Source: Patescibacteria group bacterium
GTDB taxonomy: Bacteria > Patescibacteriota > Minisyncoccia > UBA9983
Assembly (NCBI GenBank): GCA_018895015.1
Contig: JAHIOX010000027.1
Location: 1-58,940, forward strand
Reading direction: 5' to 3'
Length of the DNA stretch: 58,940 nt
In this document: in pieces, positions 52,084 to 56,476 of the stretch
Layout: the number at the start of each line of letters is the position of its first letter
How positions within the stretch are numbered: the stretch's first letter is position 1
Notes under the pieces: generated by a model
Seen by the model: the letters and a program-made list of their open reading frames with translations, nothing else
The model's database searches: none
Told to the model about the DNA's origin: nothing
Program-made: the position numbers and the translations under genes

Positions 52084-52111
52084 AAATCCGAAATCCAAAG
52101 CACGAAATCCG
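52084..52111 (+). repeat. Degenerate 7-nt tandem repeat upstream of HIT and the DGR
   Basis: AAATCCG AAATCCA AAGCACG AAATCCG. Confidence 0.6.
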
Positions 52112-52161
52112 AAACAAATTCTAATATTTAAATTCTAAGTTTTTTAAAGAACTCCGCAACC

Positions 52162-52247
52162 TTGACAGACTGTTTGTTTTGTGTATAATTAAAATAGAAT
52201 TCTTTAAAAAACCTTATTTAAAGGGCAAATATCACAATTAAGGAGGT
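52162..52247 (+). promoter_or_regulatory. Consensus promoter and Shine-Dalgarno of the DGR target gene
   Basis: TTGACA 52162-52167, 16 nt, TATAAT 52184-52189; AAGGAGGT 52240-52247, 5 nt before ATG. Confidence 0.8.
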
Positions 52248-52252
52248 TTGTC

Positions 52253-52912
52253 ATGGCTAAAAAAGTCGCAGGCGAATTATATGAAAGTATCACTGGTCAG
52301 TTGTTTGAAATCGGTCGCCAGTTAAGGCAACCGAAGGGGTATCCTTTTGATCCAGGGGTTTTACAGAAATACCTTCAAAATGCAATTGAAGGAAGATTCA
52401 ATCAAGTTATTAAAGTTGTTACTCCTGATGATAAAATTCTTGAGTTCGTGAGTACTGTTACTGTTTCAGCGACAACTAAAAAATTTGTTGTCCGGGATTA
52501 TGTCCAGAAACTACGAAAAACAAAAAATGTATATGCTAGTAGCAATTTCGAGAAATTGTTTTTTGATAAAACCGTAGAGCCAATTTCCGAGCAAGAACTC
52601 AATTATCACAAATTGACCAAAAACTCAGTGGATGGACCCATTATTGATGAGCTCGGTGGCGAAGCCAAAGTTGAAACCACTTTGGCTGAAATGTTTAGCC
52701 TCATAGCACTGCAGCCAAATGGCGAGGATGGGGTATCGCTTACTAATGGATACGCGAATGTCTTCTATATTCGCGACGTGGTTGGCGTGCTTCGTGCGGT
52801 CTGCTGCTACTGGCACGATGTCGGCTGGAACCTGAGCGCCTTCTCGGTTGAGCTTCCGTATGCGTGGTACGATGGCCGCCAGGTCTTCTCCCGCAATTCC
52901 TGTGAATCTTAG
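52253..52912 (+). CDS. DGR target protein with C-terminal variable region (CLec-like fold expected)
   Basis: 219 aa; 3' end contains VR and ends GRQVFSRNSCES. Confidence 0.92.
   Translation: MAKKVAGELYESITGQLFEIGRQLRQPKGYPFDPGVLQKYLQNAIEGRFNQVIKVVTPDDKILEFVSTVTVSATTKKFVVRDYVQKLRKTKNVYASSNFEKLFFDKTVEPISEQELNYHKLTKNSVDGPIIDELGGEAKVETTLAEMFSLIALQPNGEDGVSLTNGYANVFYIRDVVGVLRAVCCYWHDVGWNLSAFSVELPYAWYDGRQVFSRNSCES
52779..52903 (+). repeat. DGR variable repeat (VR)
   Basis: 125-nt ungapped match to 53236-53360; 14 mismatches, 13 opposite TR adenines. Confidence 0.95.
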
Positions 52913-52936
52913 GTCTTTAGTTCTTTTTTGACACTT

Positions 52937-52972
52937 AGACCCTTGGAAACTTTTCAAAGTTTCCAAGGGTCT
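52937..52972 (+). terminator. 16-bp perfect hairpin after VR (DGR cruciform and/or terminator)
   Basis: AGACCCTTGGAAACTT-ttca-AAGTTTCCAAGGGTCT followed by a T-tract. Confidence 0.8.
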
Positions 52973-53235
52973 TTTTTTATTTAAAATTTTTTGATAAAAT
53001 AAACTTGAAAGCATGCATACGCAACGGTTACGACTTTTGCGTCATGCTTTTAAGATATTTTTGCGAGAATCGCGCCGGTCAAGACTTGCGCGAGAGTGTA
53101 AAAATTTTCTTTCAAAAATACAGGAATTGGTGCAAAAAGCTGGCGGATTTCTAGATCCCAAATAAGATTCAACTCCGAGAGTTCGCCAATCGTCGAATCA
53201 AGGAGTGGTGGCACAGATGGTTTTTTGCACGAGAA

Positions 53236-53360
53236 TGGTTGGCGTGCTTCGTGCGGTCTGCTGCAACTGGAACGATGACGGCTGGAACCTGAACGCCAAC
53301 TCGGTTGAGAATCCGAATGCGTGGAACGATGGCAACCAGGTCTTCTCCCGAAACTCCTGT
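53236..53360 (+). ncRNA. DGR template repeat (TR)
   Basis: 26 adenines including 10 AAC/AAT codons in the VR frame; first 29 nt contain no A. Confidence 0.93.
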
Positions 53361-53376
53361 ATTGTATTTCTCCCGT

Positions 53377-53691
53377 TTAATTAGCGAGAGTTTTATTTTT
53401 CAGTCCCTTTTTCCATCCGCCGAACATTTTACCGATTTCCTCCAGTTTTTCTGATATTGCAGCGTAATGTTTATGGGATATAAATTTTGTTTCCCATGAT
53501 ATATAAATTAGAAATTTTAAAGTATCAAGAGAAAGAATGCATTGAGAGATTTTTTCCATTTTCTTTTCTCTTTCTGTAAAATAGGCAATATATGAAAATT
53601 CCAACAAATCAAGGAATTTATTTTCAATTCTGGCGCCGATAGTAAATCGGCTGCTTCTAGGAATATGATGGACCACACTAATCCATATCAA
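53377..53691 (-). CDS. avd: Avd-like four-helix-bundle accessory protein (N-terminus appears frame-disrupted)
   Basis: RFTIGARIENKFLDLL and EIGKMFGGW motifs; frame stays open upstream (NSASILQRIKEGY) with no in-frame start. Confidence 0.85.
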   Translation of the reverse strand: MIWISVVHHIPRSSRFTIGARIENKFLDLLEFSYIAYFTEREKKMEKISQCILSLDTLKFLIYISWETKFISHKHYAAISEKLEEIGKMFGGWKKGLKNKTLAN

Positions 53692-53701
53692 ATATCCCTC
53701 T

Positions 53702-54730
53702 TTGATTCTTTGGAGAATAGACGCGCTATTACGAGAGAGAGAGAGAGTAAAACGGCTTTGTCATATCTATAATGATATCATATCCGTTGAGAATCTGCTC
53801 GTTTCTTGGCAAGAATTTTTAAGAGGAAAAAGAAAACGGAAAGATATCGCGGAATTTTCTCTGCATTTTATGGATAACATTATTGCGCTCCAAAAAGAAC
53901 TTTTGAATAAAACATATAAACATGGCGAATATCAGGCATTTAAAATAAACGATCCCAGACCAAGAAATATTCATAAAGCCAGCGTGCGAGACAGATTAGT
54001 TCACCATGCCATTTACAGAATTTTATATCCGTTTTTTGACAAAAAATTCGTATCAGATTCTTTTTCTTGCAGGTTAGACAAAGGCACGCACAAAGCAATA
54101 AACAGATTTAGGAAATTTTATTACAAAGTCAGTAAAAACAGCACAAAAACTTGCTGGATTCTGAAATGCGACATCAGAAAGTTTTTTGCCAACATCAATC
54201 ACGGAATACTGAAAAATATTTTAGCAGAATATATTGGCGATAAAGATACCCTTTGGCTTCTGGGACAAGTGATAGATAGTTTTCGCACTGAAAACAAAAT
54301 TGGCGTCGGACTTCCACTTGGCAACCTAACTTCTCAATTATTTGTGAATATCTATATGAATGAGTTTGACCAGTTTGTTAAGTATAAACTAAAAGCCAAA
54401 TATTACATCAGATACTGCGATGATTTCGTTATTCTTTCGGAAGATAAAAGATATCTGCAAAATATCATTCCGTTTATCAGAGAGTTTTTGGACAGAGAAC
54501 TGAAACTTGAATTGCATCCTGATAAGGTTTCAATAAAAACTATGGCATCCGGAGTTGATTTTCTTGGCTGGATCAATTTTACCGACCACAGGATTTTGCG
54601 GACAACTACAAAAAGAAGAATGATTAAAAGAATAAAAATAAATAATTCTATAGAAACGATTAATTCATATCTAGGATTATTGGGTCACGGGAATACGAAT
54701 AAATTAAAGAAAGAAATTTTATTTTGTTAG
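53702..54730 (+). CDS. DGR reverse transcriptase
   Basis: RDRLVHHA, LKCDIRKFF, GLPLGNLTSQ, YIRYCDDF, GVDFLG; no maturase, endonuclease or RNase H domain; start uncertain. Confidence 0.94.
   Translation: MILWRIDALLRERERVKRLCHIYNDIISVENLLVSWQEFLRGKRKRKDIAEFSLHFMDNIIALQKELLNKTYKHGEYQAFKINDPRPRNIHKASVRDRLVHHAIYRILYPFFDKKFVSDSFSCRLDKGTHKAINRFRKFYYKVSKNSTKTCWILKCDIRKFFANINHGILKNILAEYIGDKDTLWLLGQVIDSFRTENKIGVGLPLGNLTSQLFVNIYMNEFDQFVKYKLKAKYYIRYCDDFVILSEDKRYLQNIIPFIREFLDRELKLELHPDKVSIKTMASGVDFLGWINFTDHRILRTTTKRRMIKRIKINNSIETINSYLGLLGHGNTNKLKKEILFC
53733..53747. repeat. (GA)7G simple-sequence tract at the avd/RT 5' overlap
   Basis: GAGAGAGAGAGAGAG read directly. Confidence 0.9.
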
Positions 54731-54748
54731 TGTTATAATTAATTTATT

Positions 54749-56476
54749 ATGAAGCAATGGGTTTTACGGGAGGAAATTCTTGGGAAAATAAATAAAGAAT
54801 TGGAGCAATGGCCGGAATTGGTTCGGCGGCTTTTATTTTATAGGGGTATAAAAACCAAAATAGAGGCGGAAAAATTTTTTAATCCGGATTATGAAAAAGA
54901 TTTGCATGACCCGTTTGAGATTTTAAATATGGAAAAGGCGGCTGGACGGATTTTGAAAGCGATCAAAGAAAATGAAAGAATAATTATTTTCGGAGATTAT
55001 GACGCGGACGGCGTTTGCGCCAGCGCCATTTTTCACGATTTTTTCAAGAAAATAGGATTTGAAAATTTTCATGTTCATATACCTGACAGGCATCTTGACG
55101 GCTATGGCCTTACGGTAGAGGCGATAAAGGAGTTTGCGGAACAAAAGGCCGGATTGCTGATAACTCTTGATTGCGGAATTACCGACTATGAAGAAGTTGA
55201 AAAGGCCAATTTTTTTGGGATTGATGTAATTATAACCGACCATCATCTTGTGCCGAAAAAATTGCCGAATGCTTTTGCCATTATTGATTCCAAGCAAAAG
55301 AAGGATGATTACTTTTTTAAGGATTTATGCGGAGCAGGGGTGGCGTTTAAGACAGTTCACGCGCTTATTAAAAAAGGCGGATTTAATATAGTCCATGGAT
55401 GGGAAAAATGGCTTTTGGATACTGTTGCCATAGCCACGATAGCAGACATGGTTCCGCTTGTTGGCGAAAATAGAGTTCTCGCTCATTATGGATTGCAGGT
55501 TTTGAAAAAGACGCAGCGCATGGGCCTTGTTTCGCTTTGCAAAAGGCTTGGAATAGCGCTTCTTAATGTTACAGAAGATGATATTGCTTTTATGATTGGC
55601 CCGAGAATAAATACTGCCAGCAGGATGGACCATGCCACGGCAAGTTTTACTCTTTTGACAACGCAGTCGGGCGGCGAAGCAAGCTGGGTCAGCGCCCGCT
55701 TGGAAGCGTTGAATGTTGATAGAAAAGCTATGGTGGAAGAAATTTTAAGCGGCATTGAGGAAAAAATTTCGGCTTATGGCGCTAAAATTCCGGGAGTAAT
55801 TGTGTGCGGCGATTTTAATTGGCATCCCGGCGTTTTGGGAATTGCCGCGAATCGGCTTATTGATAAATACGGGCGTCCGATTTTTTTGTGGGGGAAAGCG
55901 GAAGCAAAAGAGATCAAGGGTTCATGCCGCAGTAATGGTTCTATAAATTTGGTTGAATTGATGCGGAAAACGGCAAAAGGTTTTTTTAGTGATTTCGGAG
56001 GCCATGCTTTGGCCGGCGGCTTTTCTTTGGCTGAAGAAAAAATGCCGGATTTAGAAAAAGAAATTTTAAAAGCTTGGGAAAAAGCTTCAAAAGAAAAAAC
56101 AGAAAATAATACTATTTTTATTGATAAGGAAATTTCCATTGACGATATAAGCTGGGATTTTTATTCCATGATAGAAAAATTCCAGCCATTTGGCATTGAA
56201 AATCCCAAGCCTGTTTTTTTATTTTCAGGCGCGGAAGTCGTTGGAGTAAAAAAGTTTGGGAACAATGGCATACATATTCAAGTAGATTTTAAAAAATCTC
56301 CGTCATCTGGCGGAGATGAGATTGTTCCCGCGATAGGATTTTTCTTTAACGGCAATTTGGCGGACGTTAAAAAAGGTTCGCGCGTTGATCTTGCCGCGTC
56401 ATTGGAAAAATCATTTTTCAAGCCGAAGCCCGAATTGCGCTTGCGAATAATAGATATTAAACTAAAATCACAATGA
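54749..56476 (+). CDS. recJ: ssDNA-specific exonuclease RecJ
   Basis: GDYDADG, ITLDCG, TDHH, ADMVPL, GPRINTASR, KGSCRS, GGHALAGG; TGTTATAAT at 54731-54739. Confidence 0.96.
   Translation: MKQWVLREEILGKINKELEQWPELVRRLLFYRGIKTKIEAEKFFNPDYEKDLHDPFEILNMEKAAGRILKAIKENERIIIFGDYDADGVCASAIFHDFFKKIGFENFHVHIPDRHLDGYGLTVEAIKEFAEQKAGLLITLDCGITDYEEVEKANFFGIDVIITDHHLVPKKLPNAFAIIDSKQKKDDYFFKDLCGAGVAFKTVHALIKKGGFNIVHGWEKWLLDTVAIATIADMVPLVGENRVLAHYGLQVLKKTQRMGLVSLCKRLGIALLNVTEDDIAFMIGPRINTASRMDHATASFTLLTTQSGGEASWVSARLEALNVDRKAMVEEILSGIEEKISAYGAKIPGVIVCGDFNWHPGVLGIAANRLIDKYGRPIFLWGKAEAKEIKGSCRSNGSINLVELMRKTAKGFFSDFGGHALAGGFSLAEEKMPDLEKEILKAWEKASKEKTENNTIFIDKEISIDDISWDFYSMIEKFQPFGIENPKPVFLFSGAEVVGVKKFGNNGIHIQVDFKKSPSSGGDEIVPAIGFFFNGNLADVKKGSRVDLAASLEKSFFKPKPELRLRIIDIKLKSQ

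What the first reader, a model, noticed from the sequence alone, without database searches (positions are those of the whole stretch)
52253..54730. Complete chromosomal DGR with clear adenine-directed mutagenesis
Seen: VR 52779-52903 vs TR 53236-53360, 125 nt without gaps, 14 mismatches with 13 at TR adenines. These give nine amino-acid changes (N to Y, H, S, F, L, Y, Y, R and D to V). The RT has GNLTSQ and YCDD, and an Avd-like gene is present. Known: this is the mutagenic retrohoming signature of BPP-1-type DGRs. No phage genes flank it, so it looks cellular.
Basis: partly seen in the sequence, partly recalled or inferred. Interest (0 to 1): 0.88.

Follow-up and report, generated by a model that had tools for sequence, protein, structure and literature searches.

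The report
Active chromosomal DGR in Patescibacteria
This is a genuine, recently active diversity-generating retroelement, a reverse-transcriptase cassette that rewrites the tip of one small protein, of the layout already known to be standard in ultra-small groundwater bacteria; its less ordinary parts are a folded RNA in front of the template and a slippery repeat at the start of its helper gene.

Summary
VR 52779-52903 and TR 53236-53360 align without gaps, with 14 mismatches: 13 at TR adenines (P=8.5e-10) and 1 C-to-T.

The interpretation (a cellular DGR) is supported, and activity is shown. Three independent assemblies are identical over 2.66 kb except at 19 VR positions, all TR adenines. 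One groundwater sample carries two VR alleles as an assembly bubble.

- **Mismatches:** the two 3'-most (53351, 53354) are not mutagenesis. They are synonymous IMH/IMH* differences fixed in most relatives.
- **Layout:** avd lies on the reverse strand. This is Wu et al.'s B3 architecture, TR-(avd)-RT, which makes up 90% of CPR DGRs. The element is therefore a new member of a known kind, not a BPP-1 layout.

Beyond the finding:
- A roughly 230-nt structured RNA lies 5' of TR, with its own promoter. It is supported by covariation in 32 loci and absent from Rfam at threshold.
- One strand of it pairs with the TR 3' end and is perfectly complementary to the VR's IMH. This suggests a permuted DGR RNA that carries the primer upstream.
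- The (GA)7 tract in the overlapping avd/RT 5' ends varies in length within one sample. As assembled, it leaves full-length avd out of frame.

Both extras were already noted in other genomes of this scan.

The parts
52162..52189 (+). Promoter of the target gene: TTGACA, 16-nt spacer, TATAAT (12 of 12 consensus matches). It is followed by the Shine-Dalgarno sequence AAGGAGG at 52240-52246.
   Evidence: Consensus scan; motif positions. This is a consensus match only; transcription was not tested.
52253..52912 (+). Target gene, 219 aa. It belongs to a large Patescibacteria family with no Pfam domain. It has no hydrophobic segment, so it is predicted to be soluble.
   Evidence: ORF list. 636 homologues, none with a Pfam domain. 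AlphaFold pLDDT 85. The best, non-significant fold hits are C-type lectin domains. The highest Kyte-Doolittle score over any 19-residue window is 1.14.
52779..52903 (+). Variable repeat (VR), covering residues 176-217. The mutable part is 52808-52878.
   Evidence: Alignment to TR. 19 positions differ among three natural alleles, all at TR adenines. An assembly bubble spans 52778-52907 in run X2.
52880..52903 (+). IMH-like 3' end of VR (CAGGTCTTCTCCCGCAATTCCTGT). It never varies and differs from TR at 52894 (C) and 52897 (T).
   Evidence: The two differences are fixed in three alleles. VR CGCAATT against TR CGAAACT recurs in about 24 of 33 related loci. 52894-52903 is perfectly complementary to leader 53120-53129.
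52937..52979 (+). Perfect 17-bp inverted repeat followed by a T run, downstream of VR. It is the target-gene terminator and/or the DGR hairpin/cruciform element.
   Evidence: A G+C-rich hairpin plus T run is present at the same place in the related loci.
52992..53000 (+). Extended -10 promoter-like element (TGATAAAAT) of the template RNA. The predicted transcription start is near 53007.
   Evidence: TGnTAnAnT is conserved at the same alignment columns in most of the 32 loci. No RNA data are available.
53007..53235 (+). Structured leader of the template RNA. Helices: P1 53019-29/53032-42; P2 53061-64/53098-53101; P2a 53070-80/53083-93; and a three-way junction of P3 53130-42/53218-30, P3a 53145-48/53155-58 and P3b 53172-75/53203-06.
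   Evidence: RNAalifold on 32 loci. 93% of cells are paired against 40-52% for slid controls, 44 of 58 pairs show compensatory changes, and 0 of 500 shuffles reach the observed value. Many G-U pairs fix the strand as +. The covariance model hits once in the window, at 211 bits. The ORF at the leader's 5' ATG is not conserved.
53120..53129 (+). Single-stranded linker ACAGGAAUUG, the candidate primer strand. 53120-53123 form a pseudoknot with 53357-53360.
   Evidence: Pseudoknot: 85% paired against 23-65% for slid controls, 21 double-change cells, 0 of 500 shuffles. It gives 10 of 10 Watson-Crick pairs with VR 52894-52903 but 8 of 10 with TR 53351-53360. Compensatory cases are L051 and L083. The priming role is inferred.
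53236..53360 (+). Template repeat (TR): 26 A and ten AAY codons. It is invariant in all assemblies.
   Evidence: 21 of the 26 adenines are changed in at least one of three VR alleles.
53370..53403 (+). Hairpin (53370-75/53385-90) plus U-rich tract, starting 10 nt after TR. It is an intrinsic-terminator-like 3' end of the template RNA and/or an Avd-binding stem-loop. The avd stop codon lies in its loop.
   Evidence: Conserved, with compensatory changes. Its function is inferred.
53377..53691 (-). avd, 104 aa from TTG 53691. The frame stays open 23 codons further upstream, encoding the conserved start of helix 1, but without a start codon.
   Evidence: PF22296 at 3.9e-16; NF033474 at 69.8 bits, below its cut-off of 80. 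Upstream frame analysis.
53733..53747 (.). (GA)7G simple-sequence repeat in the overlapping 5' ends of avd and RT. ATG 53764-53762 (minus strand) is one base out of frame with avd as assembled.
   Evidence: A +GAGA variant is present at depth 11.3 beside 28 in run X1. The closest relative, L041, has a longer (GA)n tract. 26 of 34 related loci (27 counting this window's own tract, which the scan missed) have poly-G of 8-11 nt or a dinucleotide repeat at this spot.
53702..54730 (+). DGR reverse transcriptase, 342 aa from TTG 53702. The start is uncertain, because homology to relatives begins at residues 13-26.
   Evidence: RVT_1 at 1.8e-23. GNLTSQ and YCDD motifs. 164 phage records with homologous RTs, including Bordetella phages.

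Best explanation
The locus is a cell-encoded diversity-generating retroelement of the Patescibacteria (CPR) type.

**Shown**
- The RT, Avd, TR and VR are present.
- VR differs from TR almost only at TR adenines.
- In nature VR varies at exactly those sites, while the rest of the cassette is invariant. Mutagenic retrohoming has therefore operated recently in this population.

**Inferred mechanism**
1. A separate RNA of about 395 nt is transcribed from an extended -10 promoter (start near 53007). It consists of a 230-nt folded leader, the 125-nt TR and a terminator-like hairpin.
2. RT and Avd bind this RNA.
3. The leader strand ACAGGAAUUG (53120-53129) pairs with the 3' end of TR, as the Sp primer strand does in phage BPP-1.
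4. cDNA synthesis then starts near G53350, misincorporates opposite adenines, and stops at the 13-bp helix P3 that abuts the 5' end of TR.
5. The cDNA replaces VR upstream of the IMH.
6. Because the same leader strand matches the VR's IMH perfectly but TR's IMH* imperfectly, it may also help choose VR as the recipient.

The product is a soluble 219-aa protein of unknown function. Twelve of its residues, in the last 34, are randomised.

A hypermutable (GA)n tract in the overlapping 5' ends of avd and RT probably gates expression of the machinery.
For: - **TR/VR statistics:**
- **Natural alleles:** they differ only at TR-A sites over 2661 bp.
- **Within-sample VR bubble:** two unitigs at depth 12.9 and 6.9 between flanks at 22.5.
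- **Contig breaks:** contigs of other runs break inside VR.
- **Protein families:**
- **Related loci:** 34 share the same layout, all with an A-biased spectrum. Pooled, 367 of 569 A sites differ against 43 of 1613 non-A sites.
- **Leader structure:** covariation, pseudoknot, and a covariance model specific to one site per DGR locus, including 13 loci outside the training set.
- **Antisense-avd stretch:** no conserved structure there.
- **IMH/IMH*:** differences and complementarity to the leader.
- **BPP-1 template:primer duplex:** taken from bioRxiv 10.1101/2023.10.23.563531.
- **Repeat tract:** length polymorphism and recurrence in relatives.
- **Published context:** architecture B3 makes up 90% of the CPR set (PMC5758913). 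Clade 2 is cellular and restricted to Patescibacteria (PMC8144416).
Against: - No RNA data exist for this organism. The transcript ends, the terminator and priming are therefore untested.
- Only assembler contigs were available, not raw reads. Rare VR variants and exact allele frequencies are unknown.
- As assembled, the ATG-initiated full-length avd is out of frame. No tract length puts both that avd and the TTG-initiated RT in frame. How the two are co-expressed is unexplained.
- The GAAUUG/CAATTC complementarity is nearly invariant, so it rests on two compensatory cases only.
- The U tract after the hairpin also encodes the lysine-rich C-terminus of Avd, so it may not be selected as a terminator.
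- The target's fold and function remain unknown.
Confidence: 0.9

Rival explanations
1. The DGR works exactly as in BPP-1. The primer and protein-binding 'spacer' RNA lie 3' of TR, here as the antisense of avd, on one long TR-to-RT transcript. The upstream leader has some other role, such as stability or regulation.
For: In BPP-1 the essential Sp region is 3' of TR. Handa et al. report putative Avd-binding stem-loops just downstream of TR in 207 of 278 DGRs, CPR included. A conserved hairpin does sit 10 nt after TR. An earlier first-reader note (e1-5219204) proposed this reading.
Against: RNAalifold on 29 loci finds no conserved pairs in the roughly 300 nt of antisense avd beyond that hairpin: 3 pairs and -1.2 kcal/mol, against 46 pairs in the leader. 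The hairpin is followed by a U-rich tract. The leader carries a strand that pairs, with covariation, to the TR 3' end.
Confidence: 0.12
2. The cassette is switched off or crippled in most cells today, and the VR differences between samples are a record of past activity. As assembled, the (GA)7 tract leaves the ATG-initiated avd out of frame, so only an Avd lacking the start of helix 1 can be made.
For: Frame analysis. All consensus assemblies carry (GA)7. Only 5 of 26 related loci have a canonical start in frame through their repeat. Roux et al. found lower-than-average activity in clade 2.
Against: Two VR alleles coexist in one sample. Tract length is heterogeneous, with (GA)9 at about 29% in X1, so ON variants can arise. 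The TTG 53691 start has a GAGGG motif 5 nt upstream, and the 104-aa product may be functional.
Confidence: 0.3
3. The element belongs to a prophage or another mobile element rather than to the cell.
For: Many DGRs are phage-borne, and the RT has homologues in 164 phage records.
Against: The immediate neighbours are TIM, PGK and HIT on one side and RecJ, RNase H and ComEC on the other. The context is identical in three assemblies. No integrase or phage structural gene is nearby, and identity to phage RTs is at most 39%.
Confidence: 0.03
4. The repeat pair is an ordinary duplication that happens to have an A-biased difference, with no retrohoming.
For: None beyond the bare existence of a repeat.
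Against: P=8.5e-10 for the bias. Natural variation is confined to TR-A sites. The same pattern holds in 34 loci.
Confidence: 0.01

Closest known systems
CPR/Patescibacteria DGRs of architecture B3, TR-(avd)-RT (Wu et al. 2018, PMC5758913). They correspond to the cellular, Patescibacteria-restricted DGR clade 2 of Roux et al. 2021 (PMC8144416) and were first surveyed by Paul et al. 2017 (cited from my own knowledge; the paper is not held).
   Same: The gene order is target-VR, TR, reverse-strand avd, RT. The host group and groundwater habitat match. The target has no recognisable domain or membrane segment, and the location is chromosomal.
   Different: Nothing in the layout differs. In the papers I could search, I found no description of the leader RNA, the leader-IMH complementarity or the repeat tract.
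Bordetella phage BPP-1 DGR (mtd-avd-TR-brt) and its DGR RNA (Handa et al., bioRxiv 10.1101/2023.10.23.563531)
   Same: Both show adenine-specific mutagenesis, an Avd plus RT pair, IMH against IMH*, and a hairpin after VR. Both have a short template:primer RNA duplex at the 3' end of TR that includes non-standard pairs, and a stable duplex at the 5' end of TR that could stop the RT.
   Different: Here avd is inverted. The structured RNA and the candidate primer strand lie 5' of TR rather than in a 3' spacer. TR is followed at once by a terminator-like hairpin. The element is cellular, and its target is a small soluble protein rather than a tail fibre.
Rfam RT-9 (RF03080) and RT-7 (RF03028), RNA motifs found near RT genes (Weinberg et al. 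2017, PMC5737381)
   Same: The first hairpin and the A-rich/ACA..AAUUG tail of the leader align to RT-9. The second hairpin aligns to the start of RT-7.
   Different: Scores are far below the gathering thresholds: 29 against 46.1 bits, and 24 against 116.8. None of 17 related loci reaches any RT-motif threshold. No function was assigned to these motifs.
Simple-sequence contingency loci (phase variation by slipped-strand mispairing in Campylobacter, Neisseria and Haemophilus)
   Same: A repeat sits between the start codon and the body of a gene. Its length differs within one population and between close relatives, and the changes shift the reading frame.
   Different: The gated gene is part of a targeted mutator rather than a surface antigen. 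The tract is shared by two divergent overlapping genes. The effect on expression is untested.

Membership tests
Diversity-generating retroelement (DGR) | Reverse transcriptase of the DGR type: an RVT_1 domain, motif 4 ending in SQ ([LIV]GxxxSQ), and YxDD | tested here: met
   RVT_1 at 1.8e-23. LGNLTSQ at residues 206-212 and YCDD at 238-241. Homologous to RTs of Bordetella, crAss-like and Vibrio VP585 phages. No RT phylogeny was built.
Diversity-generating retroelement (DGR) | A TR/VR near-repeat whose differences fall on TR adenines | tested here: met
   13 of 14 mismatches fall on A, P=8.5e-10.
Diversity-generating retroelement (DGR) | VR at the 3' end of a protein-coding target, with adenines in the first two codon positions (AAY codons) of TR | tested here: met
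   VR covers residues 176-217 of 219, and TR has ten AAY codons.
Diversity-generating retroelement (DGR) | Accessory variability determinant (Avd) | tested here: met
   PF22296 at 59.9 bits, above its cut-off of 40. NCBIfam DivGenRetAVD at 69.8 bits, below its cut-off of 80. The N-terminal 13-24 residues are reachable only through a frame change in the (GA)n tract.
Diversity-generating retroelement (DGR) | IMH at the 3' end of VR that differs from IMH* in TR and bounds mutagenesis | tested here: met
   No variation occurs 3' of 52878 in three alleles. There are fixed differences at 52894 and 52897, conserved across relatives. A run of 14 G/C as in BPP-1 is absent.
Diversity-generating retroelement (DGR) | Ongoing diversification of VR, with an invariant TR, in natural populations | tested here: met
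   at the level of assembler contigs. Raw reads were not available.
Diversity-generating retroelement (DGR) | Variable residues displayed on a C-type lectin or Ig fold | tested here: inconclusive
   The model has pLDDT 85. No Foldseek hit reaches E<=1e-3. The top weak hits are C-type lectin domains, with E 0.26 and TM 0.25-0.34. There is no PDB sequence hit and no Pfam hit in 89 family members.
Architecture B3 of Wu et al. 2018 | Core order TR-(avd)-RT, with avd on the reverse strand | tested here: met
   ORF map. The same layout is seen in 34 related loci. Definition taken.
DGR clade 2 of Roux et al. 2021 | RT branches within the Patescibacteria-restricted cellular clade | not tested
   The host labels of homologues are Patescibacteria and the context is cellular. 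No tree with the reference RTs was built.
BPP-1-type DGR RNA | Structured spacer with the primer nucleotide 3' of TR | tested here: not met
   No conserved structure lies 3' of the post-TR hairpin. The conserved structure and the strand pairing to the TR 3' end lie 5' of TR.
Rfam RT-9 (RF03080) | Score at or above the gathering threshold of 46.1 bits | tested here: not met
   29 bits in the window. No hit in 17 related loci at gathering thresholds.
Simple-sequence contingency locus | Repeat length heterogeneous within a population, with changes that shift the reading frame of the gene | tested here: met
   A (GA)9 unitig at depth 11.3 lies beside (GA)7 at 28 in run X1. Frame analysis. Near-identical relatives carry G8, G10 or G11. 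The effect on expression is not testable here.

The most novel reading that the evidence does not exclude
In the whole B3 (CPR) class, the DGR RNA is a stand-alone transcript that is circularly permuted relative to BPP-1.
- The protein scaffold, the stop helix and the primer strand all lie in a 5' leader.
- The primer strand (ACAGGAAUUG) is imperfectly complementary to TR's IMH* but perfectly complementary to VR's IMH.
- The RNA-linked cDNA would then be guided to VR by RNA-DNA pairing, which would give the long-unexplained IMH a concrete molecular role.
- On top of this, a hypermutable repeat in the shared 5' ends of avd and RT would switch the mutator on and off stochastically.
Probability: 0.4. 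Interest if true: 0.75.

Novelty: new member of a known kind. Interest (0 to 1): 0.42.

Why it matters
As a DGR, the locus adds only one more well-documented, demonstrably active example to a class known from thousands of CPR genomes.

Its value is as a clean model locus:
- The cassette is compact at 2.6 kb.
- Three natural VR alleles are available.
- One sample holds two VR alleles, and another holds two repeat-tract lengths.

The leader RNA and its complementarity to IMH make two open questions directly testable in vitro:
- How do DGRs with an inverted avd prime cDNA synthesis?
- How does IMH mark the recipient?

The repeat tract suggests that targeted hypermutation is itself phase-variable. 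That could explain the lower apparent activity reported for this clade.

Tried and rejected
- **Genome-wide search for remote VRs:** I could only show that the window holds no third copy and that contigs of eight runs lay no further TR-like piece at 80-85% likeness.
- **Raw-read polymorphism:** only Logan contigs were served, so rare variants could not be counted.
- **RNA evidence:** no RNA run holds the stretch.
- **Target fold:** Foldseek against PDB and BFVD gave nothing significant. A profile search of PDB sequences and Pfam on 89 family members were also empty.
- **Rfam:** only sub-threshold RT-9 and RT-7 hits in the window, and none in 17 relatives.
- **Small protein encoded by the leader:** rejected. 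The ORF from the conserved 5' ATG ranges from 1 to 121 codons across loci.
- **Structure inside TR predicted by RNAalifold:** rejected. It shows almost no compensatory change: one pair in four sequences, one cell at another pair, none elsewhere.
- **First regex anchoring of IMH:** it failed and was redone from the pairwise alignments.
- **Paul et al. 2017:** the paper is not held.
Full report
**1. Observation**

The window holds a 125-nt direct repeat, VR 52779-52903 and TR 53236-53360, offset by 457 nt and ungapped.
- There are 14 mismatches: 13 at TR adenines and one TR-C to VR-T.
- TR has 26 A and 99 other bases, so this bias has a hypergeometric P of 8.5e-10.
- VR covers residues 176-217 of a 219-aa ORF (52253-52912).
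- A scan of both strands that ignored A positions found only these two copies.

**2. Genes**

- The RT ORF (53702-54730, +) has RVT_1 (1.8e-23), LGNLTSQ and YCDD. It has homologues in 164 phage records, among them Bordetella phages, crAss-like phages and Vibrio phage VP585, at 39% identity or less.
- The Avd gene is real: PF22296 scores 59.9 bits against a cut-off of 40, and NCBIfam DivGenRetAVD scores 69.8, below its cut-off of 80. It lies on the minus strand (53377-53691), between TR and RT.
- The flanks are TIM, PGK and HIT upstream, and RecJ, RNase H and ComEC downstream.
- This order, target-VR then TR-(avd)-RT, is architecture B3 of Wu et al. 2018. [quoted passage not shown]
- Roux et al. 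2021 describe the matching RT clade 2 as cellular, aquatic and restricted to Patescibacteria. Its targets lack recognisable domains and its activity is lower than average.

**3. Activity in nature**

The target protein has 636 homologues, all unannotated and labelled Patescibacteria where labelled at all. Two of them (95% identical) differ from the window's protein only in VR, at positions that are Asn, Asp or Glu codons in TR.

I fetched their contigs: a GenBank MAG (GCA_018896515.1) and a Logan assembly of another run.
- Over 2661 bp (52100-54760) the three assemblies are identical except at 19 positions.
- All 19 lie in VR and all are TR adenines. TR, avd, RT and the spacers are invariant.
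- 21 of the 26 TR adenines are changed in at least one allele. The only non-A difference from TR is 53354.
- In run X2 the assembly graph opens into a bubble exactly at 52778-52907. Two 130-nt unitigs (depth 12.9 and 6.9) sit between flanks of depth 22.4-22.7, so two alleles coexist in one sample.
- In run X6 contigs break inside VR.

**4. IMH**

The two 3'-most differences are the same in all three alleles: 53351 A against VR C, and 53354 C against VR T.
- In about 24 of 33 related loci VR reads CGCAATT where TR reads CGAAACT. Both encode Arg-Asn, so the difference is held at synonymous sites.
- These are IMH/IMH* differences, not mutagenesis. The window's VR therefore carries 12 mutagenic changes.
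- In relatives the A of the preceding CAG codon is sometimes changed. The 3' limit of information transfer thus lies in the 12 nt between that A and CGA.
- Pooled over relatives, 367 of 569 A sites and 43 of 1613 non-A sites differ upstream of the IMH.

**5. Relatives**

A scan of one genome per species with the target-family profile gave 120 confirmed matching stretches, of which 80 loci were kept.
- 34 have the complete cassette in the same order, with the same spacing (VR to TR about 450-480 nt) and A-biased mismatches.
- About 30 carry a target homologue with no DGR part within 4 kb.

**6. Template RNA**

The roughly 230 nt directly upstream of TR are conserved and full of compensatory changes.
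- RNAalifold predicts two hairpin domains (P1; P2/P2a) and a three-way junction. Its closing 13-bp helix, P3, ends 5 nt before TR.
- On 32 loci, 93.3% of cells are paired against 40-52% when partners are slid. 44 of 58 pairs show double changes, and none of 500 shuffles reaches the observed values.
- Frequent G-U pairs show that the + strand is the RNA.
- An extended -10 element (TGnTAnAnT; 52992-53000 in the window) precedes the conserved block.
- The ORF that starts at the block's 5' ATG is not conserved.
- A hairpin with compensatory changes, followed by a U-rich tract, starts 10 nt after TR. The avd stop codon is in its loop.
- Beyond that hairpin, the 300 nt antisense to avd show no conserved pairing.
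- A covariance model of the leader hits the window once (53007-53240, 211 bits). It hits one site per DGR locus, always downstream of the target gene, including 13 loci outside the training set.
- Rfam has no family for it at threshold. The window gives only weak partial matches to RT-9 and RT-7, and 17 relatives give none.
- Weinberg et al. 2017 assigned only RT-10 to a DGR, namely the BPP-1 spacer.

**7. Primer-like strand**

The single-stranded linker between P2 and P3 (53120-53129, ACAGGAAUUG) pairs with the 3' end of TR.
- The core 53120-53123/53357-53360 is paired in 85% of cells against 23-65% for slid controls. It has 21 double-change cells, and 0 of 500 shuffles reach this.
- In register, the next six bases (GAAUUG) face TR GAAACU with two mismatches. 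These fall exactly at the two IMH/IMH* sites.
- Against VR the whole 10-mer is perfectly complementary (52894-52903).
- Two lineages changed both partners: L051 (GAGUUG with CAACTC) and L083 (GAAUCG with TGATTC).

In BPP-1 the active site holds a 10-position TR:Sp duplex with seven canonical and three non-standard pairs. The primer A56 sits at its end, and synthesis starts at the next template base, a G.

By analogy I infer the following:
- The leader supplies the primer strand.
- cDNA starts near G53350, which would explain why the IMH is never overwritten.
- P3 acts as the stop.
- The better match to IMH could help direct the RNA-linked cDNA to VR.

None of this is shown. I put it at roughly 0.4-0.6.

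**8. Repeat tract (noted in passing)**

avd and RT are divergent, with 10 nt between TTG 53691 and TTG 53702.
- The avd frame is open for 23 more codons upstream. These encode the conserved start of helix 1, but there is no start codon.
- An ATG at 53764 reads through (CT)7 and is one base out of frame.
- The same spot holds poly-G of 8-11 nt, or (GT)n/(CT)n, in 26 of 34 relatives (27 counting this window's own (GA)7G tract, which the scan missed). Lengths differ between near-identical loci, and only 5 of 26 are in frame with a canonical start. The closest relative has a longer (GA)n.
- In run X1 the contigs break at the tract. A unitig with +GAGA has depth 11.3 beside 28.

The tract is therefore hypermutable in nature. 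Its effect on Avd and RT expression is untested. With the canonical starts, no length puts both in frame, which I cannot explain.

**9. Target**

- AlphaFold on 89 sequences gives pLDDT 85.
- Foldseek finds nothing significant. The best weak hits are C-type lectin domains.
- There is no Pfam, PDB-sequence or NCBIfam relation.
- There is no hydrophobic segment.
- The gene has a 12-of-12 consensus promoter and a strong Shine-Dalgarno sequence.
- Its function is unknown.

**10. Earlier notes of this scan**

Earlier notes describe the same leader and the same repeat switch in many other Patescibacteria genomes. One note mentions a primer strand complementary to IMH. I used these as leads only. The tests above were run here.

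**11. Verdict**

The finding is real and correctly interpreted, but it is a routine member of the CPR B3 class. The parts that may be new to the literature are the leader RNA topology, its complementarity to IMH, and the repeat switch. All three are inferred from comparative sequence only.

Noticed in passing
window 53733-53747 (and 53691-53764): A (GA)7G tract lies in the overlapping 5' ends of avd (-) and RT (+). ATG 53764 is one base out of frame with avd. Run X1 holds a (GA)9 variant at depth 11.3 beside (GA)7 at 28. 26 of 34 related loci have poly-G of 8-11 nt or a dinucleotide repeat at the same spot, mostly out of frame with any canonical start.
   Followed up: partly
window 52162-52189 and 52240-52246: The target gene has a perfect sigma-70 consensus promoter (TTGACA, 16-nt spacer, TATAAT) and an AAGGAGG ribosome-binding site. 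The protein has no signal peptide or membrane segment.
   Followed up: partly
loci L007, L011-L013, L015, L021, L024-L026, L030, L031 and others: About 30 of 80 related loci carry a target-family gene with no leader, TR, avd or RT within 4 kb. These are orphan paralogues or remote targets. L026 and L059 hold two target paralogues, and L023 holds two leader copies.
   Followed up: no
loci L019, L029, L048, L056, L043, L032: These loci keep the target, leader and TR. Their avd and/or RT are absent, truncated or reduced to fragments. They may be decaying or 'satellite' cassettes.
   Followed up: no
window 53017-53131: There are sub-threshold Rfam matches to RT-9 (29 bits) and RT-7 (24 bits), two RNA motifs of unknown function found near RT genes. 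They may be distant relatives of parts of this leader.
   Followed up: partly
run X8 laid on window 52500-53500: A diverged relative (about 90-95% identity, probably the strain of protein P0004) has its own TR differences, including 53265 and 53271, and small indels near the VR hairpin and the TR 3' end.
   Followed up: no
window 52904-52936: Between VR and its hairpin lies a conserved pyrimidine-rich motif (repeats of CCTTTG / CTTTGAC) that is shared by most related loci. Its role is unknown.
   Followed up: no
window 52779-53360: VR (61% G+C) and TR (57%) are much richer in G+C than the window (40%), avd (32%) and RT (33%).
   Followed up: no
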